64,000 nucleotides of DNA from an uncultured delta proteobacterium (GCA_963774665.1 CAVZGB010000020.1:226797-290796), one strand, 5' to 3'. Positions 1 to 8,270 are shown, numbered from the stretch's first letter. Program-made: numbers and translations. The notes: a model not told the origin generated them from the letters alone.

Positions 1-71
1 AGTTATCTACGCTGTACGTCGATTGAATATCCGTGTTGAAACAACATCGAAATGAGGATGGGGTGTACCAA

Positions 72-218
72 ATGAGCGAAGCAAAAGAACGCGAAGTCAT
101 CGTAAAACTACCTTACACGACCCCCAGGCTGGTCGAGTATGGCTCCGTCACGAAGCTTACTGAAGCAAAGTCAAACGGCGGGACCGACGGCGTCCCCGGC
201 GCTCATCACAACGTGTAA
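72..218 (+). CDS. Lasso peptide precursor (A). Leader MSEAKEREVIVKLPYTTPRLVEYGSVTKLTE; predicted core AKSNGGTDGVPGAHHNV.
   Basis: A 48-aa ORF is the first gene of a B2/B1/kinase set. Its leader matches the conserved lasso leader motif Y-x2-P-x-L-x3-G-x5-T-x exactly, with Thr at -2, core residue 1 = Ala and Asp at core position 8. ATG at 72 is preferred over the upstream in-frame GTG at 33, which has no ribosome-binding site (RBS). Confidence 0.6.
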   Translation: MSEAKEREVIVKLPYTTPRLVEYGSVTKLTEAKSNGGTDGVPGAHHNV

Positions 219-225
219 TTCGTCA

Positions 226-262
226 GAGAGCTGGTTCCAGTTTATCGCTGGAACCAGCTCTC
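226..262 (+). terminator. Strong stem-loop immediately 3' of the precursor gene, likely an attenuator or transcript-stabilising hairpin.
   Basis: Perfect 14-15 bp inverted repeat GAGAGCTGGTTCCAG / CTGGAACCAGCTCTC with loop TTTATCG, 8 nt after the precursor stop. The U-tract is weak (ATTCCTGT). Confidence 0.45.
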
Positions 263-295
263 ATTCCTGTCATCGTCGCGAGCTGAACGCTGCTA

Positions 296-1282
296 GTGTT
301 TGGATATGCAGTTTATGGTCTCGCGATCAGTTCTGACGTAACTCTCCGCAATTTGAAACCGATCGAATCGACCGAGGACCTGCAAGGGCGTCCTCGAGTG
401 CGATTGCGCCTCAAACCGTCGAAGTATACGCGGATCCAAGCTACTGACTGGTTTCTCGAGTACGCGACGCCCGCAGGAAAGCCGTTCCTGCGCCAGGCGA
501 AGGTAGCCGGCGGCTACCTGCTGAGCTTTCCCGACCTGGCCGACTTCCTGGTCTCGAAGAATGGATCGCAGGTCACGTGTTGCTGGCCGTATGCACACCG
601 CTCCTTCGACACAATTTGTCATCTCGCGGTGGACCAGGTTCTGCCCTGCGTGGCGAACCTGGTCGGTCTGCTGGCGCTGCATGCGACCGCCGTCGTGACT
701 CCGCATGGAGTCTGCGGCTTCGTGGGATCGGCGGGCACCGGCAAATCCACCCTGGCCGCGAGCTTCGCGCTCGCCGGCTACCCGACCTACTGCGACGACT
801 GCCTGGTGGTAGTTGAAGGCGGCGACGGAATCGTGGCCCAGCCGGGTTATCCCGGCGTCCGACTATGGGAAGACTCGGCCCGATCGATCCTCGGCGATCG
901 CGCCGCCGATCATCCGACGATCGGACACTATTCGAGCAAGCGCGGAGTTGAACGATTTGCGGAAACCGCCGAGGCTTCGCTGCAACCGGCGCCGCTCATC
1001 GCGATTTATATTTTGACTCGCGATATTTCGGGCACCGCCGCCGAGCGCGGTCAGACGCCGACGATCGATGAACTCCCTGCGAGCGAAATCTTTGTCCAGT
1101 TGCTGCGTTCCACCTACCGGTTGGACATTACCGATAGCGCAATGCTCAGTCGGGAGTTTCGGGCCCTCCATACCCTTGTCGATCGGGTTCCGGTGAGAAG
1201 GCTTGCCGTGCCGAACAATTTCGACGCACTACCTGCCGTGCGCGAAACGGTTATCGCCGATCTTGCGCGTATCAGAAACTGA
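296..1282 (+). CDS. HPr-kinase-like (HprK C-terminal domain family) kinase of the type associated with lasso peptides
   Basis: P-loop GSAGTGKST followed by DDCLVV, as in the HprK C-terminal domain GxSGxGKS...DD. GTG start follows an in-frame stop. Sits directly after the precursor gene. Confidence 0.7.
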   Translation: MFGYAVYGLAISSDVTLRNLKPIESTEDLQGRPRVRLRLKPSKYTRIQATDWFLEYATPAGKPFLRQAKVAGGYLLSFPDLADFLVSKNGSQVTCCWPYAHRSFDTICHLAVDQVLPCVANLVGLLALHATAVVTPHGVCGFVGSAGTGKSTLAASFALAGYPTYCDDCLVVVEGGDGIVAQPGYPGVRLWEDSARSILGDRAADHPTIGHYSSKRGVERFAETAEASLQPAPLIAIYILTRDISGTAAERGQTPTIDELPASEIFVQLLRSTYRLDITDSAMLSREFRALHTLVDRVPVRRLAVPNNFDALPAVRETVIADLARIRN

Positions 1283-1294
1283 TACTGATTCTTC

Positions 1295-1711
1295 TCAATG
1301 TTCCCCGACTGGCAGCGCAGCGTAGTTCCGACGCTCACTTTCGCCGGTGATTATACGGTCGCCGCATTCGAGCCATGCATGGGCGCGCAGAAGGTCGGAA
1401 GAATTTTTTGCGACACCGAGCCGGATTTGGCTGCTGATGCCGCGCCGCGCGAGCATCTCGCGCCCGGCGATCGCGCGAACGAGGCAATTGTCTCCGGCCG
1501 GTACGATACGGCCGGCAGTCTCAACCGCCCAACTTATTTTCGCGGTGTCGGTGTCCTGCGCGCCGGCCAGCGGCGTCACTGGCTGCAGGATTTTGCGCAC
1601 GGGAACGAACATCACTGCCAGCCGTGCTTTGACCAGCGACGCTACCGCCGATCCGAGCAGTCGGCGATCAGCGGCCGGCAGGTCAATGAATTTGCGCACT
1701 CGCGATTGCAT
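1295..1711 (-). CDS. Lasso peptide biosynthesis B2 protein (transglutaminase-like leader peptidase)
   Basis: Motif NCLVRAIAGREMLARRGISSQIRLGVAKN...HAWLECGDRII aligns with the McjB C-terminal core CLxxSxALxxxL...IGV...HSWVE, which contains the catalytic Cys and His. Size of about 138 aa is typical of a split B2. Confidence 0.75.
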   Translation of the reverse strand: MQSRVRKFIDLPAADRRLLGSAVASLVKARLAVMFVPVRKILQPVTPLAGAQDTDTAKISWAVETAGRIVPAGDNCLVRAIAGREMLARRGISSQIRLGVAKNSSDLLRAHAWLECGDRIITGESERRNYAALPVGEH

Positions 1712-1785
1712 CGTGGACCGTGATCATCCAGCTTAGACGTGGGGCGCCAACAAGGGCAATCGCGTTTGGCAACCGGTGGCATCCA

Positions 1786-2055
1786 ATGAAGATCGAGATT
1801 TCTAAAGATGTGATCTGGCGCGAATTGGGCGGGGAGGTTGTGATGCTCGATCTCGCCAACCAACAATATTTTGGTTTGACCGGCACCGGCAGCGAAATGT
1901 GGCAACTGATCGTGGAGCATGGTTCAGCCGACTCCGTGATCGATCGGATGCTCGCCAAGTACGACGTGGACCCCGCGAATCTCAGGGCCGACTTCGACAA
2001 GCTCGTGAACGAACTGGCCGCCAAGGGGATGTTGCGGGTCTCCCGCGGCGACTGA
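1786..2055 (+). CDS. PqqD-family protein (lasso peptide B1, the leader-recognition RRE)
   Basis: An 89-aa protein with the PqqD signature (WRELGGEVVMLDLANQQYFGLTGTGSEMWQLI...). It is divergent from B2. The internal ATG at 1786 is preferred over 1720. Confidence 0.75.
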   Translation: MKIEISKDVIWRELGGEVVMLDLANQQYFGLTGTGSEMWQLIVEHGSADSVIDRMLAKYDVDPANLRADFDKLVNELAAKGMLRVSRGD

Positions 2056-2125
2056 CCTTCCCTTTCCCGGACACACTCCCCAGCTCGCCGGTTGATGGGC
2101 GAGGGCGCCGGCGTTGCTTTAGTGG

Positions 2126-2148
2126 GGCGGGCCGCCGTGCCCGCCTTT
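2126..2148 (+). terminator. Possible intrinsic terminator after B1
   Basis: GGCGGGC-cgccgt-GCCCGCC hairpin followed by TTTGATCC. Confidence 0.3.
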
Positions 2149-2162
2149 GATCCCGCTCCTTC

Positions 2163-3419
2163 GTGGGGATAGCTTTCTCCGACATTATGCTGAGTCCCGT
2201 CAATCGATGGTTCCCGCAAAGCGCCACTCGCGACGCGCGGGTGCTGCTGACGACGCGCGCGTTGCGCGGACTTGCCGACGGCGGAGTCAGCGTATTGTTG
2301 CCGGGCTACCTGACGGCAATCGGATTCAATCCGCTGCGGGTCGGCGCGATCGTGTTCGGCACGCTGCTCGGCTCGGCGGCGCTCACGCTATGGGTTGGGC
2401 TGGCGACGGATAGATTGGGCCGGCGTCGAGTCCTGCTCGCGGCGTGCGGGTTGATGCTGTTGACGGGAATCGGATTCGCCATCACGACTAGCTTCTGGCC
2501 ATTGTTCATCGTCGCAGTGGTCGGCACGCTGAATCCTTCCGCCGGCGATGTCAGCCTCTTCCTGCCGGTCGAGCAGGCGGCGCTGGCCGAGGCCGCGGAG
2601 CCGCGAGATCTGACTGCTATGTTCGCACTGTACAATGTTGCGGGCGCATTCGCCGGGGCGTTCGGCGCGCTCGCGAGCGGCGTTCCGGCGATACTCGCGG
2701 CGCGGCACGGATGGGGACTCGCGCCGGCGCTGCGGTCGGGCTTCGTTGCCTACTCGATCCTCGCGGTCATCGCCTTCACGTTCTATCGGCGTCTTTCACC
2801 GGACGTCGAAGTCGAGCGCTACCCGGTCAAGCGCGCGCCGCTGGAGAAATCGCGCGCAATCGTCTACCGGCTATCGGCGCTGTTCAGTATCGACGCGTTC
2901 GGCGGCGGATTCGTAATTCAATCGCTGCTGGCGCTGTGGCTGTTCCGCCGTTTCAATCTCTCGGTGCAGACGGCGGGTGCATTTTTCTTCGCGGCGGGAT
3001 TGCTCGGATCGTTTTCACAGTTTGTTTCGGCGGCACTCGCGTCGCGCTTCGGCCGGATCAACACGATGGTATTCAGCCATCTGCCGTCGAATTTGATGCT
3101 GATACTTGCCGCGCTGATGCCGACGCCGGCGCTCGCGATGGGATTTCTTCTGCTCCGATCGTCGACCTCGCAGATGGACGTTCCCGCTCGGCAGTCATAC
3201 GTGATGGCGGTGGTGCCGCCCGAGGAGCGCGCGGCCGCGGCGACCGTCACGAATGTGCCGCGCAGCCTGGCGTCAGCATTCGCGCCGCTGCCGGCGGGCG
3301 CGATGCTGAATCATTCGTCGTTCGGATGGCCGCTGATTTGCGCGGGCACGCTGAAAACAATCTACGACATCTTGCTGTTGATCCAGTTCCGCGCAGTAAA
3401 ACCCACCGACGAATTTTGA
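2163..3419 (+). CDS. MFS transporter, a possible exporter for the cluster
   Basis: 418 aa with about 12 predicted TM helices and the MFS loop motif GRRRVLL. Start may be at the internal Met at 2187. Confidence 0.8.
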   Translation: MGIAFSDIMLSPVNRWFPQSATRDARVLLTTRALRGLADGGVSVLLPGYLTAIGFNPLRVGAIVFGTLLGSAALTLWVGLATDRLGRRRVLLAACGLMLLTGIGFAITTSFWPLFIVAVVGTLNPSAGDVSLFLPVEQAALAEAAEPRDLTAMFALYNVAGAFAGAFGALASGVPAILAARHGWGLAPALRSGFVAYSILAVIAFTFYRRLSPDVEVERYPVKRAPLEKSRAIVYRLSALFSIDAFGGGFVIQSLLALWLFRRFNLSVQTAGAFFFAAGLLGSFSQFVSAALASRFGRINTMVFSHLPSNLMLILAALMPTPALAMGFLLLRSSTSQMDVPARQSYVMAVVPPEERAAAATVTNVPRSLASAFAPLPAGAMLNHSSFGWPLICAGTLKTIYDILLLIQFRAVKPTDEF

Positions 3420-3485
3420 TCCAACGCGATTGTTCCCCTTCCCTCGAGGGAAGGCGTTAGGGGTTAGGTTCCTTTGAAGGAAGCG

Positions 3486-4319
3486 CTACGCGCGCAGCAC
3501 GACGATGCCGTCGCGGATCGCGAGGCGGCCTTCGCCGCTGAGCGTCTCGAAGAAGATGGCGGTGCCTTCGCGCGCAAGTACTCGTATTGTCAGCATCGAG
3601 GGCATTGTCACCATCGCGCCGAAACGTGCCGCCACTCTTTCTATTCGCGCAGGATCCTTGCCCGCCTGGCTCTCGACTATGCGCGAGACTGCAAGTGCCA
3701 GCGTTGCGGTTCCGTGCAGGATGATTTCGGGCAACCCGGCTGCGCGCGCGACCGACGCGTCGGTGTGTATCGGATTAAAGATTCGCGCGCACTCCGTGTA
3801 TATGTGCGCCATACCCGCCGGCACATCCACCTGGCATTCCAGGAGCGGCTCGCCCTCCTCGACGATCGGCGGCTCCGGCGAGGGCGCAAGCTTCGCCGGA
3901 AAATCCGGTCCTTTGACTTCGACGCCGCGATAGATCGCGCCGTACCAGCTCGTGCACACCGGCTTGCCTGCCGCATCGACGGTGTCGAGCCGCGTGACCA
4001 TGTATGCGCCCGGCTTCCGCCGCTCGACGCCCGCCACCGTGAGCTGCGTGGTCAGGCGCTCGGGTGGCCGAATCGCTCGATGCAGCACGGTGTCATGCGT
4101 CGCATGCACCCCGCGCATCGCCTCGTCGCGCGTAAGCGAGGTGGATTTTTCGAACTGCGCGCGCATCGCGACCTGCACCGGCCATTCGAAGCAGACCGGG
4201 AACATCGGATGCGCAATCACTCCGCCGAACGGTGTCCATGTAGCAGGGAATCGAGTCGCCGAGCGCGGCCGCGTACGCCATCGTCCAGCGCGAATCGATC
4301 TCGCTGACCATTGGCGCAC
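3486..4319 (-). CDS. MaoC-like (R)-specific enoyl-CoA hydratase / double-hotdog dehydratase
   Basis: C-terminal MaoC motif NPIHTDASVARAAGLPEIILHGTATLA. The N-terminal 38 residues are Arg-rich, so the true start may be at 4205. Confidence 0.65.
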   Translation of the reverse strand: MRQWSARSIRAGRWRTRPRSATRFPATWTPFGGVIAHPMFPVCFEWPVQVAMRAQFEKSTSLTRDEAMRGVHATHDTVLHRAIRPPERLTTQLTVAGVERRKPGAYMVTRLDTVDAAGKPVCTSWYGAIYRGVEVKGPDFPAKLAPSPEPPIVEEGEPLLECQVDVPAGMAHIYTECARIFNPIHTDASVARAAGLPEIILHGTATLALAVSRIVESQAGKDPARIERVAARFGAMVTMPSMLTIRVLAREGTAIFFETLSGEGRLAIRDGIVVLRA

Positions 4320-4471
4320 CGGCGCTCCCGACGATCGAAGACTCGAGCGGCATGACAGCTACTTCTACCCGCGACGAATCGTCCCGTCCACCGCGCGGCA
4401 GATTTACAGACATCTGCAGCGGGTGAAATCCTCGTTGACATCTGATGACTGATGCGTGATGATCAATCGTT

Positions 4472-4699
4472 ATGCGTACCACGCTGGATATAGATGAGGA
4501 CGTTCTCGAGTGCGCTAAAGAGCTAGCGGCCAGGCGGCAAACTACGGCGGGGCGCATTTTATCTGAGCTCGCGCGTTGCGCGCTGGCGCCCCGGGATCGC
4601 ACTGCTCGTAAACGCAACGGGGTGCCGCTTCTGCCAAAGCAACGAGGGGTGCGGCTGGTCACGCCGGAAATTGTCAACCGGCTCCGCGACGAACTTTAA
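4472..4699 (+). CDS. vapB: Type II antitoxin VapB
   Basis: N-terminus MRTTLDIDEDVLECAKELA is typical of VapB/DUF2191 antitoxins. It is 14 nt upstream of a PIN toxin gene. Confidence 0.75.
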   Translation: MRTTLDIDEDVLECAKELAARRQTTAGRILSELARCALAPRDRTARKRNGVPLLPKQRGVRLVTPEIVNRLRDEL

Positions 4700-4713
4700 G
4701 AGCCGGATAGCGT

Positions 4714-5151
4714 GTGATCGCCCTGCTTGACGTCAACGTCCTGGTGGCGTTGTTTGATCCCGCCCATTTGCATCACGAGGCAGCCCACGTGTGGTTCGGT
4801 CGCAACCGCAGCCGCCGATGGGCGACTTGTCCGCTGACAGAAAACGCGCTGGTTCGGGTATTATCCAATCCGTCCTATCCTGGCCGGCGCACGACGATCG
4901 AGGATGCCGCAGCGCGTTTGCGAGTCTTCTGTTCGGATCGCCTGCATGTCTTCTGGGCCGATTCGGTGAGCATTCGCGACACCGGCGGGTTCCGATGGAA
5001 TCATGTTCAGGGCCATCGCCAGCTCACTGACGTCTACCTGCTGGCCCTTTCGGTATCGAATGAAGGCCGACTGGCCACTTTCGATTCGACGATCTCTCTC
5101 AGAGCGGTCCAAAGCGCGGCTCCGAATAATCTCGAACTTCTCTCAGCATAA
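4714..5151 (+). CDS. vapC: PIN-domain toxin VapC
   Basis: MIALLDVNVLVALFDP... PIN fold with an acidic residue pattern; 145 aa. Confidence 0.8.
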   Translation: MIALLDVNVLVALFDPAHLHHEAAHVWFGRNRSRRWATCPLTENALVRVLSNPSYPGRRTTIEDAAARLRVFCSDRLHVFWADSVSIRDTGGFRWNHVQGHRQLTDVYLLALSVSNEGRLATFDSTISLRAVQSAAPNNLELLSA

Positions 5152-5305
5152 CTGCTTGATCGCGCAAACTGGCGATGACGGAGTTACCGCTCCGCGGAAA
5201 GCGCAACGCGGGGATTACCGCGGACCCAGGTGTCGAACATTTCCGCAAGCGCCTGGCGTTTTACCGGCTTGCTCATTGCTGGCAGCTTTGTTCAGGGAAC
5301 TGCGT

Positions 5306-5875
5306 TCAGTCTGATTTCTGGCAAGAGGCTCCGACGTACTTCCAGATCGAATGACCCGGACCAGACAAGCGAAACATTGTCCCGCTCAAGATGGTGCCGT
5401 CGGGCGATACTTGAAAGTCTCCATGCATCGTCCGAAGGTGCAACTGAATCTGGGTTCCGTTAACGGTACCATCGCCGTGGCTCATCACTGCGTCAGACTC
5501 CGGAAAGTAGTTGGTTACTTCGAGCTTCGATCCAGTTTGAGTAATGAGATGACAGCCGCCTACCATGTCGCGCCACGCCCCGGTGAGGGTTGGATGCTTC
5601 CCGGGTTTTATCGAAGCGAGTTGGGACGAAGACGCCGGTGATCCGGCTCCGGAGCGAGCCTCATTCGAGACTGCCGATCCGGGTGCGAACCCAGGTTCTT
5701 CAGAAGATGGAGCCGGCGCGCTGATTTCCGTGGCCCTGGTTGCCTCGTGATTTCCGATGTAGCCGAGCTGATTGAGCGTTCCTACGATAGCGGCGATAAC
5801 GGTAGCTAGCGCGGCAGCAGCACCGAGCAGGCCGCCGGAGATGCCGCTGCTTCCCTTTCGGGGATCATCCGCCAT
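5306..5875 (-). CDS. Hypothetical membrane-anchored protein
   Basis: ORF with one TM helix (GGLLGAAAALATVIAAIVGTL), a low-complexity linker, then a C-terminal domain. Its ATG overlaps the upstream hydrolase stop (TAATG). Confidence 0.4.
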   Translation of the reverse strand: MADDPRKGSSGISGGLLGAAAALATVIAAIVGTLNQLGYIGNHEATRATEISAPAPSSEEPGFAPGSAVSNEARSGAGSPASSSQLASIKPGKHPTLTGAWRDMVGGCHLITQTGSKLEVTNYFPESDAVMSHGDGTVNGTQIQLHLRTMHGDFQVSPDGTILSGTMFRLSGPGHSIWKYVGASCQKSD

Positions 5876-6651
5876 TATTTTCCCTTCAGATATTGCGCAA
5901 GAAAGTCGAGCGTAACCGCCCATGCGGCTTGAGTATCATTCGCGTCGTAAGCGCTCGAGTCCTCGAAGTTGAAGGCGTGCTCTGCCTCGGGATAGAGCTT
6001 AAGTTGATGCGGCCGCGCCGCTGCAGTGAGGATCTGATCGAGCTCCTGAGATTGCTGAGCAAGCACTAAACGATCTTTTCCGCCGTGAATAATCAAGGTC
6101 GGCGGCATCGTGGCAGCCTTTTCTTTAATCGATGGGGGCACCGGCCCATAGTAGTCGACGACCGCCGCGACCTGGTCTGAATAATGGGCGCCGAGAGAGA
6201 GCGCCAGCATCGCGCCAAGGGAATAGCCCATCACACCGATTCGCTTGGGATCGACCGCGGGGTTCTTGCCCAGCGCGTCGAGGCCGTCGTGAAGTTTCCG
6301 GACCCACCCGGCGAACGATTGGCGGACTTTCGCCTGCTCCCCCGGTACGACTTCTTCGCCCGCGGCGTAGTATTCGATCATCTCAGCGTAGTAGCCCTGC
6401 GCCGCGAGATCCCCGCAGACCTGCTCCAGGTTGTGATAGCCGGCACCATGAACTTCCGCACCATGGATCAGTATCACCGCTGGATGCGATTGCTTCGAGT
6501 CGGGTGCACAGGCGTACACTTCGACCGGTTGGCTACCGGACGTGTACTCGCTCTTGGTCCAGGCGGCGCGGGCCGGAACGGCGCCAATCAGAAGCGTGAT
6601 GGTGATCGAGAGGAGCCAGAGTTGATTGACCGCTTTGACTCGGTTTCCCAC
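5875..6651 (-). CDS. Dienelactone hydrolase-family alpha/beta hydrolase (secreted)
   Basis: Signal peptide, nucleophile elbow GYSLG, HGGKD and a C-terminal His motif. Confidence 0.8.
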   Translation of the reverse strand: MGNRVKAVNQLWLLSITITLLIGAVPARAAWTKSEYTSGSQPVEVYACAPDSKQSHPAVILIHGAEVHGAGYHNLEQVCGDLAAQGYYAEMIEYYAAGEEVVPGEQAKVRQSFAGWVRKLHDGLDALGKNPAVDPKRIGVMGYSLGAMLALSLGAHYSDQVAAVVDYYGPVPPSIKEKAATMPPTLIIHGGKDRLVLAQQSQELDQILTAAARPHQLKLYPEAEHAFNFEDSSAYDANDTQAAWAVTLDFLAQYLKGK

Positions 6652-6827
6652 GTTGAATTCCGACTCACACTCCCATCAACATCAGCTGATTTGCAAGTGG
6701 CTGCCGGCCGCGGCACAACATGGCGCGATAACGACGCGGTCGCAGATAGACGTGAGTACTTGCGCGATCGGCATGAATCGCGAGTTGAGAGTTCCGGCGC
6801 CTTCACTGCGACGCCAGGTCTCGATAT

Positions 6828-7265
6828 CTACAGGAAGCTGCCGACTGTTCCCTGACCGTCGAGCTCGATGTGCTGGGGACTATTTTGCGCCGAGTCGGTG
6901 AACGTCAGGGCATTGTGATCGTTCACCTTGCCGGTGACGAGCGGATGGAACACGACCTCAACCTTGCACGAACCACCGGGAGCCAGCGGCGAGCCCGAGC
7001 ATTTGTCGCTTTGTATCGAGAAGGTTTCCGCGGCGACGATACTGGTAAAAGTGATCGAGTCTGTCCTGGATTTGTTGGTAACGGTTACGGTCAGCGGCGC
7101 ACTGGAGGCTGTGGCGACCACCGGGCCGAAGTCGTGCTTGTCAGGTTTGAGTTTCAGCTCTGCGCCTGAGTCTGCGGCGACGATGGCGTAGACTAAAGCC
7201 GTCGCGACAGCTGTCAAGACCATCAGAAACGATCCGGCAGGACGGGTAAATCTGAATCGCAGCAT
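6828..7265 (-). CDS. Small secreted protein with a choice-of-anchor-D/ASH-like domain
   Basis: Signal peptide, then DFGPV...TVTNKS...CSGSPLAPGGSCKVEVVFHP, which is the same pattern as the C-terminus of the 58000..59639 protein. Confidence 0.5.
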   Translation of the reverse strand: MLRFRFTRPAGSFLMVLTAVATALVYAIVAADSGAELKLKPDKHDFGPVVATASSAPLTVTVTNKSRTDSITFTSIVAAETFSIQSDKCSGSPLAPGGSCKVEVVFHPLVTGKVNDHNALTFTDSAQNSPQHIELDGQGTVGSFL

Positions 7266-7469
7266 GTTGTTCCTCCCCCGAGGACGCGATGTCTAAACTC
7301 ATCACAACTAAACAGATTGTAGTAAAAGATAACAGCGACGCAAGAGCCTGCCAACTGCCGCTCGGTCGCGTCTCGAGATCCTTCAGACGGCGCGCGATTT
7401 TGGGTAAGGTGGACAATCGTGGTTCCGGGGAAGAACTCCAGGCACCGAAGCTAATGATTTATCAGGCTT

Positions 7470-7559
7470 GGAGGGGTGGCCGAGCGGTTAAAGGCACCGG
7501 TCTTGAAAACCGGCAGGGATGAAAGTCCCTCGTGGGTTCGAATCCCACCCCCTCCGCCA
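7470..7559 (+). tRNA. tRNA-Ser (anticodon UGA)
   Basis: Cloverleaf with acceptor GGAGGGG/CCCCTCC, D-arm GCCGAGCGGTTAAAGGC, anticodon stem CCGGT/ACCGG with loop CTTGAAA giving anticodon TGA, a long variable arm, T-arm GTGGGTTCGAATCCCAC, discriminator G and CCA. Confidence 0.85.
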
Positions 7560-7826
7560 ACGAGTCCCCGAGGCAGAGAAATCGGGGCTTCCGCTGGCGA
7601 AAAGCCCGCGCAGACGGCGTTTTCTAGGCCGAAAGTCCCTCAGAGAAAGGCCAGCCAGCGACGATCCGCCGAGATTTCGCCCGATTCTCTCTGTTTCGAC
7701 CTTTCGGAGGGGACTTTCGAAATCGAACAGAAAGCTGAAAGACCGCTTTCAACATCAATGACGAGGGCTTCCCGAGCAAGGACAAGCCCAGACAAGGGTT
7801 GCTCGCCTCAGGTTGGTCGCGACTCC

Positions 7827-8270
7827 TCAATGGCGAGCAGGCTCGAACAGCTCAATCGGATTGCCGTCGGGATCTTCAATTTGAATCTGTTTGCCACCGG
7901 GGCCGACCTCGATTTCATTTCTAAAACGCAGACTCGCCTTTTTCAGCTCCGCAATGCGCGCAGGCAAATCCAGGACCTGAAGGAGCACACGGTTCCATCC
8001 GCCGGGCTCTTGTTGACGGCCATCGCACATTGGTCGCGACCCAGATGCCCCAGGACCGCTCAAGATTAACTTGAGGCCACCTATTGAAACCTGGCCGAAA
8101 GCCGGCAAGTTCTGCATGTCCAGATTGAAACCAAGCGTCTGCGTATAAAAAGTAATTGCCCGCTGAACATCTTTGACCTGATATCGAACACCCCAAAACC
8201 CCACAACGAAAGCCTGTGTCGTATGAGATGACTCCGAGTGTTGCTTCTCGCTCTCTTGTATTGAATTCAT
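7827..8270 (-). CDS. VOC-family protein (glyoxalase/bleomycin resistance/dioxygenase fold)
   Basis: VGFWGVRYQVKDVQRAITFYTQTLGF...IEDPDGNPIELFE. Start chosen at Met 8270, which has a GGAG ribosome-binding site. Confidence 0.7.
   Translation of the reverse strand: MNSIQESEKQHSESSHTTQAFVVGFWGVRYQVKDVQRAITFYTQTLGFNLDMQNLPAFGQVSIGGLKLILSGPGASGSRPMCDGRQQEPGGWNRVLLQVLDLPARIAELKKASLRFRNEIEVGPGGKQIQIEDPDGNPIELFEPARH

What the first reader, a model, noticed from the sequence alone, without database searches (positions are those of the whole stretch)
1..3419. Left half of a kinase-containing lasso-peptide biosynthetic gene set
Five of the expected components are visible here. There is a 48-aa precursor whose leader fits the lasso RRE-recognition motif exactly. 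There is an HprK-like P-loop kinase of the kind reported in paeninodin-type clusters. There is a split B2 transglutaminase-like protease carrying the CL..A.A...L...IGV...HAWLE core, a PqqD/B1 protein, and an MFS transporter where an ABC exporter is more usual. The macrolactam synthetase (C, asparagine-synthetase-like, about 600 aa) is not in the window. It is presumably upstream of coordinate 1. The predicted product (core AKSNGGTDGVPGAHHNV) resembles no lasso peptide I know.
Basis: partly seen in the sequence, partly recalled or inferred. Interest (0 to 1): 0.7.

Follow-up and report, generated by a model that had tools for sequence, protein, structure and literature searches.

The report
Kinase-bearing lasso peptide gene cluster
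The start of the window holds the downstream part of a real lasso-peptide (knotted antimicrobial-type peptide) gene cluster from an uncultured soil bacterium; its missing ring-forming enzyme lies just off the window edge, and it is a new example of a known kind, not a new kind of system.

Summary
Window 72-3419 encodes these genes:
- a 48-aa lasso precursor (Y-17, P-14, L-12, T-2; core AKSNGGTDGVPGAHHNV, Ala1-Asp8 ring)
- an HprK/PEPCK-fold P-loop kinase
- a B2 protease, on the minus strand
- a PqqD B1 protein
- an MFS transporter

The missing cyclase exists. In a metagenome contig 99.2% identical to the window, an Asn-synthase-like cyclase ends 12 nt before window position 1. Further upstream are two secreted beta-barrel proteins and a PF14907 nucleotidyltransferase.

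The kinase gives no Pfam HprK hit (no hit in the Pfam scan that includes PF07475). It does carry the exact catalytic motif of characterised lasso kinases (H129, G144, G147, G149, K150, S151, D167, D168). Profile-profile probability against them is 99.1%.

No precursor in this clade ends in Ser, so the paeninodin rule (C-terminal Ser) does not apply. Ser3 is invariant in 12 core variants, which matches BsfK of Bradymonas, a kinase that phosphorylates ring Ser3.

The C-A-K core is a 4.5-kb cassette. It was swapped, inverted, into a conserved Binataceae locus that supplies B2, B1, MFS and the nucleotidyltransferase.

Verdict: a new member of a known kind. Interest is moderate.

The parts
72..218 (+). 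Precursor gene A (48 aa). Leader 72-164 (31 aa), core 165-215 (AKSNGGTDGVPGAHHNV), stop 216-218. The ORF is also open from GTG 33.
   Evidence: NF033521 lasso leader, 20.1 bits against a cut-off of 19. Y-17/P-14/L-12/T-2 spacing read directly from the sequence. Asp8 is the only acidic residue in the core. Gene callers give 48 aa on two of three sister contigs (61 aa, the GTG-33 start, on the third). Twelve distinct homologous cores keep A1, K2, S3 and D8.
226..262 (+). Perfect 15-16 bp stem-loop between A and K, with no U-tract. It probably protects the precursor mRNA 3' end and/or attenuates read-through.
   Evidence: Inverted repeat, 100% complementary. MFE -36.8 kcal/mol, z -4.6, with 0 of 200 shuffles folding as well. 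Conserved in four sister loci, with 3 compensatory pairs. Precedent: a hairpin after the A gene had to be removed to express astexin-1 (PMC7549694).
296..1282 (+). K: HprK/PEPCK-fold P-loop peptide kinase (328 aa). His129 at 680-682, P-loop G144-S151 at 725-748, Asp167-Asp168 at 794-799.
   Evidence: H129, G144, G147, G149, K150, S151, D167 and D168 are invariant in 30 homologues, with the same spacing as the mutagenised BsfK motif (PMC10368454). Ungapped 33-42% identity to eight lasso kinases over the catalytic segment. hhalign 99.1%, E 4.4e-19. AF2 pLDDT 88.8. Foldseek hits PEPCK and L. casei HprK/P at E 4-7e-6.
1295..1711 (-). B2 leader peptidase (138 aa, transglutaminase-like Cys protease). 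Candidate catalytic triad Cys76/His111/Asp118.
   Evidence: PF13471 E 3.7e-24; NF033537 81 bits. Closest to B2s of kinase-bearing clusters: PadeB2 E 3e-19; Bace, Papo and Psm about 1e-16; BsfB2 4e-12. Actinobacterial B2s score 1e-4 or worse.
1786..2055 (+). B1: PqqD-type RiPP recognition element (89 aa from ATG 1786; ORF open from GTG 1720).
   Evidence: PF05402 E 3.6e-16. Best NCBIfam hits are the two lasso PqqD chaperone models (E 4.6e-13 and 6.3e-11), both below their exception cut-offs. Called as 89 aa on the sister contigs.
2163..3419 (+). MFS transporter (418 aa), presumed exporter and/or immunity pump.
   Evidence: PF07690 E 2.6e-37. Orthologues at 71-97% identity lie inside 13 of 80 related lasso loci, in at least four different positions relative to C, K and B1.
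1..1301 (.). Window part of a 4.5-kb replaceable cassette (sec2-sec1-C-A-K). Its right-hand junction falls between the K stop (1282) and the B2 stop (1295-1297).
   Evidence: blastn of L002 against L026: the flanks are collinear at 84-91% identity up to L002 6310 (window 1302) and again from L002 10815. The interior is unrelated and inverted.

Best explanation
This is the downstream part of a complete, split-B (B1/B2) class II lasso-peptide gene cluster from an uncultured Binataceae-like bacterium.

Shown by sequence:
- The full set, read in the window's orientation, is N (PF14907 nucleotidyltransferase, divergent), sec2, sec1, C (cyclase), A, hairpin, K, B2 (opposite strand), B1, MFS.
- The window starts 12 nt after the C gene.

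Inferred mechanism:
1. B1 binds the YxxPxL leader of the 48-aa precursor.
2. K, an HprK/PEPCK-fold P-loop kinase, phosphorylates the linear precursor on a ring hydroxyl. Ser3 is the most likely site, by analogy with BsfK.
3. B2 cuts after Thr-2/Glu-1.
4. C joins the Ala1 amine to the Asp8 side chain around the tail. The product is a 17-residue lasso with an 8-residue ring and His14/His15 as likely plugs.
5. The nucleotidyltransferase may decorate the phosphate further, as PsmN does.
6. The MFS pump exports the product.
7. The stem-loop after A raises the precursor transcript level relative to the enzyme transcripts.

The C-A-K core, with two secreted beta-barrel proteins, is a cassette that replaced a different C-A-K cassette, in inverted orientation, at a conserved locus. 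That explains why B2 faces the other way.
For: Cluster membership:
- HMM hits for A, B2, B1 and MFS.
- C, N and both sec genes lie on 98-99% identical contigs.

Kinase:
- Invariant catalytic motif with the spacing of the BsfK residues whose mutation reduces activity (PMC10368454).
- hhalign 99.1% to 10 lasso kinases; fold match to HprK/P and PEPCK.
- Across the 80 genome loci, C is detected beside K in 65, N in 64 and B1 in 55; N starts within 400 nt after K in 43.

Phosphorylation site:
- Ser3 is invariant in 12 of 12 cores of this clade.
- A Ser or Thr sits at positions 3-5 in 48 of 48 cores of the other clades.
- Only 2 of 60 cores end in Ser, and Ser/Thr directly before the Asp occurs in only 11 of 48.
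- BsfK phosphorylates Ser3, needs the leader and is strongly accelerated by B1 (PMC10368454).

Other points:
- B2 groups with the B2s of kinase-bearing clusters.
- The hairpin is conserved with compensatory changes.
- Cassette swap.
- PsmK/PsmN precedent for phosphate followed by hexose (PMC8498205, PMC9266682).
Against: - No product has been observed, and everything beyond gene identity is inference.
- The kinase misses PF07475 and reaches only 22 bits on TIGR04352.
- Thr/Ser7 is also invariant in this clade, so it could be the phosphorylation site instead.
- The leader has Thr-2, whereas the Bsf group has Ile-2.
- C, N and the sec genes are not in the window itself. They are known only from near-identical metagenome contigs.
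- The closest cassette relatives (L004-L006) have no B1 or B2 within 8 kb, so dependence on these particular B genes is not proven.
- B2 and B1/MFS are transcribed separately from A-K, and no sigma-70-like promoter was found.
- The Bsf cluster, the best analogue, has never yielded a mature lasso peptide in any host (PMC10368454).
Confidence: 0.8

Rival explanations
1. This is the same lasso cluster, but K acts on a different site or at a different stage. It might phosphorylate Thr7 next to the isopeptide Asp. It might act on the mature peptide as self-resistance. It might only prime the peptide for the nucleotidyltransferase.
For: Thr/Ser7 is invariant in all 12 cores of this clade. Lasso kinases already show two different regiospecificities, C-terminal Ser and ring Ser3 (PMC8498205, PMC10368454). 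K-N adjacency in 43 of 80 loci suggests a coupled two-step modification.
Against: Across the other clades, a hydroxyl residue directly before the Asp is present in only 11 of 48 cores, while one at positions 3-5 is present in 48 of 48. Characterised lasso kinases do not accept the core alone or the threaded peptide (PMC8498205, PMC10368454).
Confidence: 0.2
2. The locus is a recombination scar. A foreign C-A-K cassette landed beside B genes tuned to another precursor, so the set is silent or non-productive.
For: The cassette was replaced in inverted orientation. B2 is convergent with K. The sister cassettes L004-L006 lack B1/B2 nearby. No promoter-like sites were found. L001 and L002 show frameshifted MFS genes.
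Against: All five window ORFs are intact. The leader is nearly identical across clades (PYxxPxLVEYGxVxKLT), so the resident B1 and B2 should recognise it. The cores show purifying selection at positions 1-3, 7, 8 and 15 across 12 variants. The hairpin keeps its pairing through compensatory changes. The same arrangement appears in at least three independent samples.
Confidence: 0.1
3. The 328-aa protein is not a peptide kinase. It is some other HprK/PEPCK-fold ATP-binding protein, such as a phosphatase, a pyrophosphorylase or a scaffold.
For: No curated family cut-off is reached. The profile search of the PDB gives only weak P-loop hits (E 0.008-0.05). HprK/P itself is bifunctional (established knowledge).
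Against: Every residue whose mutation reduces BsfK activity is invariant. hhalign gives 99.1% to ten characterised or predicted lasso kinases. The gene is strictly embedded in lasso clusters.
Confidence: 0.05

Closest known systems
bsf cluster of Bradymonas sediminis FA350 (BsfA, K, B1, B2, C, D, N; PMC10368454)
   Same: Split B1/B2. HprK-like kinase with the same H...GxxGxGKS...DD motif. A nucleotidyltransferase gene is present. The precursor has no C-terminal Ser. There is a Ser at core position 3 and an 8-residue ring closed on Asp8. The YxxPxL motif is at -17 to -12.
   Different: Bsf has Ile at -2, Gly1 and an ABC exporter. This cluster has Thr at -2, Ala1 and an MFS transporter, plus two secreted beta-barrel proteins. 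The kinase catalytic segments are only 38% identical. The host phylum and gene order also differ.
Paeninodin-type clusters of Firmicutes (PadeK, ThcoK, BaceK, PapoK) and SyanK of Sphingobium
   Same: A lasso cluster with an HPr-kinase homologue that acts on the linear precursor. The window's B2 is most similar to PadeB2, BaceB2, PapoB2 and PsmB2. The kinase catalytic segment is 33-42% identical.
   Different: Those kinases phosphorylate a C-terminal Ser that is conserved in all their precursors (PMC8498205). This core ends in ...HHNV, and only 2 of 60 related cores end in Ser. They use ABC exporters, and their leaders differ.
Pseudomycoidin cluster (PsmK + PsmN), Bacillus pseudomycoides
   Same: A kinase paired with a nucleotidyltransferase-like protein. 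PsmN adds one or two hexoses to the phosphate (PMC9266682). The K-N pairing recurs in 64 of 80 loci of this family.
   Different: The Psm modification is on the C-terminal Ser. In this cluster N is divergently transcribed about 3.7 kb upstream of A, outside the window. N was matched only to PF14907, not to PsmN itself.
Caulonodins IV-VII (lasso peptides that do not start with Gly; recalled from memory, not checked here)
   Same: The ring can start at Ala or Ser rather than Gly or Cys.
   Different: They have no kinase and come from a different lineage (Caulobacter).

Membership tests
Lasso peptide biosynthetic gene cluster (split-B type) | Precursor with a YxxPxL leader motif at -17 to -12, Thr at -2, a core starting with a small residue, and Asp/Glu at position 7-9 | tested here: met
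   Y-17, P-14, L-12, T-2, Ala1 and Asp8 read directly from window 72-218. NF033521 gives 20.1 bits against a cut-off of 19.
Lasso peptide biosynthetic gene cluster (split-B type) | PqqD-like RiPP recognition element (B1) | tested here: met
   PF05402 E 3.6e-16, 59.7 bits against a cut-off of 23.4. The lasso-specific NCBIfam models are the best hits but fall below their exception cut-offs.
Lasso peptide biosynthetic gene cluster (split-B type) | Transglutaminase-like Cys protease (B2) | tested here: met
   NF033537 81.4 bits against a cut-off of 33; PF13471 85 bits against 26. Cys76 and His111 align with PadeB2.
Lasso peptide biosynthetic gene cluster (split-B type) | Asparagine-synthetase-like macrolactam cyclase (C) in the cluster | tested here: met
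   It is not in the window. On the 99.2% identical contig L002 it ends 12 nt before window base 1. PF00733 E 8e-42; the best NCBIfam hit is lasso cyclase NF033535, 381 bits, below its 525-bit cut-off.
Lasso peptide biosynthetic gene cluster (split-B type) | The product has a threaded lariat topology | not testable with these tools
   This needs MS, NMR, and carboxypeptidase or heat assays on the isolated peptide.
Lasso-peptide kinases (HprK-like: PadeK, ThcoK, SyanK, PsmK, BsfK) | Catalytic motif His ... G-x2-G-x-G-K-S ... D-D with fixed spacing | tested here: met
   H129, G144, G147, G149, K150, S151, D167 and D168 are invariant in 30 homologues. The spacing is identical to BsfK H148...D187. 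hhalign 99.1%.
Lasso-peptide kinases (HprK-like: PadeK, ThcoK, SyanK, PsmK, BsfK) | HprK/P-PEPCK type P-loop fold | tested here: met
   AF2 model with pLDDT 88.8. Foldseek hits PEPCK (E 4e-6) and L. casei HprK/P 1kkl (E 6.5e-6).
   There is no Pfam hit except AAA_16 at E 0.032. TIGR04352 gives 22 bits against a cut-off of 200.
Lasso-peptide kinases (HprK-like: PadeK, ThcoK, SyanK, PsmK, BsfK) | ATP-dependent phosphorylation of the linear precursor | not testable with these tools
   This requires an enzyme assay.
Paeninodin subtype | C-terminal Ser in the precursor as the phospho-acceptor | tested here: not met
   The core ends in Val. None of the 12 cores of this clade, and only 2 of 60 family cores, end in Ser.
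BsfK subtype (ring phosphorylation) | Ser/Thr at core position 3 and no C-terminal Ser | tested here: met
   Ser3 is invariant in 12 of 12 cores.
BsfK subtype (ring phosphorylation) | Ile/Val at leader position -2 | tested here: not met
   Position -2 is Thr in the window and in all related precursors recovered.
PsmN/BsfN-type tailoring nucleotidyltransferase | A nucleotidyltransferase-family protein encoded with K in the cluster | tested here: met
   PF14907 E 2.4e-56 on L002 11069-12292. It is present in 64 of 80 K loci.

The most novel reading that the evidence does not exclude
The sec2-sec1-C-A-K unit may be an exchangeable cassette. It would move between genomes and use a resident, shared set of B1, B2, MFS and nucleotidyltransferase genes, which the near-universal leader makes possible. 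Its two secreted 8-stranded beta-barrel proteins may be a previously unknown kind of lasso-peptide partner, such as a periplasmic carrier or immunity protein. The final product would be a ring-Ser3 phospho-lasso peptide, possibly with a further nucleotide or sugar on the phosphate, from the uncultured phylum Binatota.
Probability: 0.25. Interest if true: 0.55.

Novelty: new member of a known kind. Interest (0 to 1): 0.38.

Why it matters
Kinase-tailored lasso peptides are few. About half a dozen kinases have been studied, and only one of them modifies a ring residue.

This locus belongs to a large, uncharacterised family. There are 409 loci in species-representative genomes and 3,435 kinase representatives at E<=1e-30. 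The family is spread through uncultured soil and freshwater lineages (Binataceae, Nitrospira, Acidobacteriota).

The family as a whole lacks the C-terminal Ser rule and keeps a hydroxyl residue at ring positions 3-5. This suggests that ring phosphorylation is the commoner natural mode.

The cassette swap gives a natural example of mixing C-A-K modules with fixed B1/B2 genes, which is useful for engineering. None of this changes how lasso peptides are understood; it extends a known theme.

Tried and rejected
- Pfam and NCBIfam on the kinase: no usable hit.
- Profile search of PDB sequences: only weak P-loop matches to PEPCK (E 0.008) and HprK 3tqf (E 0.048). These were replaced by fold and profile-profile tests.
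- The paeninodin paper (PMC4919450) is not held.
- Literature searches for lasso peptides with Binat* (0 papers) or Nitrospir* (only BGC surveys) found no description of this family.
- A second cyclase or other cluster genes elsewhere in the 64-kb window: none.
- Repeats at the cassette junctions that would indicate site-specific inversion or a mobile element: none.
- Sigma-70-like promoters in 1-3600: none. The only terminator-like site is a weak hairpin over the K stop codon.
- sec1 function: no Pfam or NCBIfam family. Foldseek gives only non-significant lipocalin-like or TbpB-like beta-barrel matches (E about 0.03, TM 0.4 or less), so only the fold class is stated.
- PF27840, precomputed on a few kinase homologues, is absent from the local Pfam copy and could not be identified.
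- Considered and rejected: that the 61-aa GTG-33 start is the real precursor start. Homologues and two of three gene calls on sister contigs use the ATG, giving 48 aa.


Full report
**What is in the window**

Six-frame ORF listing and HMM scans give the following genes.
- A 48-aa ORF at 72-218 (+).
- A 328-aa ORF at 296-1282 (+).
- A 138-aa ORF at 1295-1711 on the minus strand.
- An 89-aa ORF at 1786-2055 (+; open from GTG 1720).
- A 418-aa ORF at 2163-3419 (+).

The HMM support is as follows.
- The minus-strand ORF is a lasso B2 protease (NF033537, 81 bits against a cut-off of 33; PF13471, E 3.7e-24).
- The 89-aa protein is PqqD (PF05402, E 3.6e-16). Its best NCBIfam hits are the two lasso PqqD chaperone models.
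- The last ORF is an MFS_1 transporter (E 2.6e-37).
- The 48-aa peptide reaches the curated cut-off of the lasso leader model NF033521.

Counting back from the Glu31|Ala32 junction gives Tyr-17, Pro-14, Leu-12 and Thr-2. These are the positions described as the B1 recognition and cleavage elements in PMC10368454. The core is AKSNGGTDGVPGAHHNV. Asp8 is its only acidic residue, so an Ala1-Asp8 eight-residue ring is the only possible macrolactam. The main correction is that B2 lies on the opposite strand.

**The missing cyclase**

An exact-sequence look-up of B2 found three metagenome contigs that carry it.
- L002 matches window 1-7508 at 99.2% identity. L001 matches window 1-3419 at 98.3%.
- On L002 an Asn_synthase/GATase protein ends with TGA 12 nt before window base 1. 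It was called at 613 aa and is 635 aa from the MSGII start.
- Its best NCBIfam hit is the lasso isopeptide cyclase model (381 bits, against 248 for genuine asparagine synthase). It is below that model's exception cut-off.
- Upstream of it lie two small secreted proteins (171 and 175 aa). Beyond them, divergently transcribed, is a 407-aa PF14907 nucleotidyltransferase (E 2.4e-56).
- Nothing resembling C, N or the secreted proteins occurs elsewhere in the 64-kb window.

**The kinase**

Four other lines of evidence support a kinase.
1. In an alignment of 30 homologues down to 40% identity, H129, G144, G147, G149, K150, S151, D167 and D168 are invariant. Their spacing is identical to H148-G163-G166-G168-K169-S170-D186-D187 of BsfK. 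Mutation of six of these residues (all but G166 and G168) reduces BsfK activity (PMC10368454).
2. The catalytic segment aligns essentially without gaps (none for six of the eight) at 33-42% identity with BsfK, PcyK, LvtK, PadeK, ThcoK, PapoK, SyanK and PsmK. Those fragments were taken from that paper's Supplementary Figure S10.
3. A profile-profile comparison of the two families gives 99.1% probability, E 4.4e-19, over 90 columns.
4. An AlphaFold model (pLDDT 88.8) matches PEP carboxykinases and the L. casei HprK/P catalytic domain at E 4-7e-6.

The protein family is large. There are at least 502 close homologues, none of them carrying a functional name (those named are 'hypothetical protein'). 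There are 409 loci in species-representative genomes. Against 1.84 billion cluster representatives, 3,435 score E<=1e-30.

**Genomic context of the kinase family**

I mapped the window proteins by tblastn onto 80 genome loci. Beside K, the cyclase is detected in 65 loci, the PF14907 protein in 64, B1 in 55 and B2 in 29. In 43 loci the PF14907 gene starts within 400 nt after K. The hosts are mostly Binataceae or 'Deltaproteobacteria' MAGs from peat and soil, and Nitrospira. A few are Acidobacteriota, Burkholderiales and Entotheonella. The window's flanks are 84-91% identical at the DNA level to Binataceae and Candidatus Binatus MAG contigs, so the source is most likely a Binataceae bacterium. 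That origin is an inference.

**Which residue is modified**

Characterised kinases of Firmicutes and Sphingobium phosphorylate a C-terminal Ser that is conserved in their precursors (PMC8498205). This core ends in Val. I recovered 12 distinct cores of this clade and 48 from other clades.
- Only 2 of the 60 end in Ser.
- Within the clade, A1, K2, S3 and D8 are invariant. Position 7 is always Thr or Ser, G5 is present in 11 of 12, and H15 in 11 of 12.
- In the other clades a Ser or Thr at positions 3-5 occurs in 48 of 48 cores. A hydroxyl residue directly before the ring Asp occurs in only 11 of 48.

BsfK, the one kinase whose precursor lacks a C-terminal Ser, phosphorylates Ser3 and accepts Thr3. 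It does not accept the core alone, and B1 strongly accelerates it. I therefore take Ser3 of the linear, B1-bound precursor as the most likely target, at about 50-60% confidence. Thr7 is the main alternative.

The window's B2 is also closest to the B2 proteins of kinase-bearing clusters. PadeB2 scores E 3e-19, against 1e-4 or worse for actinobacterial B2s. This agrees with the paper's observation that such B2s form one group.

By analogy with PsmK and PsmN, where hexoses are added to the phosphate (PMC9266682), the PF14907 protein may elaborate the phosphate. This was not tested.

**Other anatomy**

A perfect 15-16 bp stem-loop lies at 226-262, between A and K.
- MFE is -36.8 kcal/mol, z is -4.6, and none of 200 shuffles folds as well.
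- It is kept in the four sister loci, with three compensatory base-pair changes.
- It has no U-tract, so it is not a canonical intrinsic terminator.
- A hairpin after the A gene is known from astexin-1, where it was removed for heterologous production (PMC7549694).
- Its inferred role is to stabilise the precursor transcript or to limit read-through into K.

**Mosaic origin**

Comparing L002 with L026, a Binataceae MAG, shows collinear flanks at 84-91% nucleotide identity. One flank carries MaoC, MFS, B1 and B2, up to the last codons of B2. The other carries N, YCII and a flavin monooxygenase.

The 4.5 kb between the flanks (sec2-sec1-C-A-K) has no counterpart in L026. L026 instead carries, in the opposite orientation, a different C-A-K set and a 320-aa ORF with no known family. 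Its C is 35% and its K 43% identical to the window's, and its core is SGGSSLPVDG....

In L026, B2 is co-directional with C-A-K. The inverted replacement explains why B2 converges on K in the window. No junction repeats were found.

Sister cassettes L003-L006 (about 75% nucleotide identity) sit next to the same MFS and N genes. L003 lacks B2, and L004-L006 lack both B1 and B2 within 8 kb. The leader is almost invariant across clades (kkPYxxPxLVEYGxVxKLT), so one B1/B2 pair could serve several cassettes. That is a hypothesis.

**The secreted proteins**

sec1 and sec2 are distant paralogues (32% identity, E 7e-6). The sec1 family is small (19 clusters), and several of its contigs are the same ones that carry this cassette's kinase or precursor. 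Its model (pLDDT 79) shows a signal peptide followed by an eight-stranded beta-barrel. It has only non-significant lipocalin-like matches. The function is unknown. A carrier or immunity role is speculation.

**Comparison and verdict**

The locus works like the kinase-bearing lasso clusters, and it meets the defining features of a split-B lasso cluster and of the lasso-kinase family.
- It fails the paeninodin-subtype feature (C-terminal Ser).
- It fails one Bsf-subtype feature (Ile at -2) but meets the Ser3 feature.
- It differs from all characterised examples in having Ala1, an MFS transporter instead of an ABC exporter, two secreted barrel proteins, its host phylum, and its cassette-swap history.
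- No paper in the searchable library describes this family.

I rate it a new member of a known kind. Interest is moderate, at 0.38.

Predicted masses for testing:
- linear core: 1616.766 Da
- lasso: 1598.755 Da
- mono-phosphorylated lasso: 1678.721 Da

Noticed in passing
L002 6311-10814 (= window 1-1301 plus 3.2 kb upstream) compared with L026 5462-10199: The C-A-K core and two secreted-protein genes form a 4.5-kb cassette. It replaces a different C-A-K cassette, in inverted orientation, between flanks that are 84-91% identical (B2/B1/MFS on one side, nucleotidyltransferase/YCII on the other). No junction repeats were found.
   Followed up: partly
L002 9577-10092 (-) and 10195-10722 (-), just upstream of the window: Two paralogous secreted proteins (171 and 175 aa, 32% identical) with a predicted 8-stranded beta-barrel and conserved cysteines. 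They have no Pfam or NCBIfam family. The family is small (19 clusters) and several of its contigs are the same ones that carry this cassette's kinase or precursor.
   Followed up: partly
L003, L004, L005, L006 (the closest cassette relatives): L003 keeps a PqqD gene but has no B2. L004-L006 have neither B1 nor B2 within 8 kb of C-A-K. This suggests the B genes act in trans from another lasso locus, or that these copies are decaying.
   Followed up: partly
L039, L044, L047, L051, L053, L054, L057, L058, L063, L069, L076, L077, L079 (Nitrospira) and several Binataceae loci: 23 of 48 related precursors end in Cys-Leu, often after a Met/Gly-rich tail (for example GNPSGMFPDGNSGMRMTTSCL). In L044 a 381-aa ORF (6820-7965) with a SAM-methyltransferase motif (VVDLGSGTGVLG) lies between A and K. 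These look like a further, undescribed tailoring variant.
   Followed up: no
L026 9148-10110 (-): A 320-aa ORF with no Pfam family lies between K and the nucleotidyltransferase in the alternative (SGGS-type) cassette.
   Followed up: no
window 4472-4699 (+) and 4714-5151 (+): A small antitoxin-like ORF followed by a PIN-domain protein (PF01850, E 3e-5). This is a VapBC-type toxin-antitoxin pair, unrelated to the lasso set.
   Followed up: partly
window 3486-4319 (-), 5875-6651 (-), 6828-7265 (-), 7470-7559 (+): A MaoC-like double hot-dog dehydratase, a dienelactone hydrolase, a secreted Ig-like (HYDIN/VesB-type) domain protein, and tRNA-Ser(UGA). These are ordinary neighbours that mark the end of the cluster.
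   Followed up: partly
L001 7187-8420 and L002 4191-5425 (MFS gene): The MFS gene is split by frameshifts in both sister contigs but is intact in the window. These are probably assembly indel errors, but pseudogenisation in those populations is not excluded.
   Followed up: no
kinase homologues P0013, P0014, P0039, P0046, P0064: These carry a precomputed Pfam accession, PF27840, which is not in the local Pfam copy. A curated family for this kinase may therefore already exist in a newer Pfam release.
   Followed up: no
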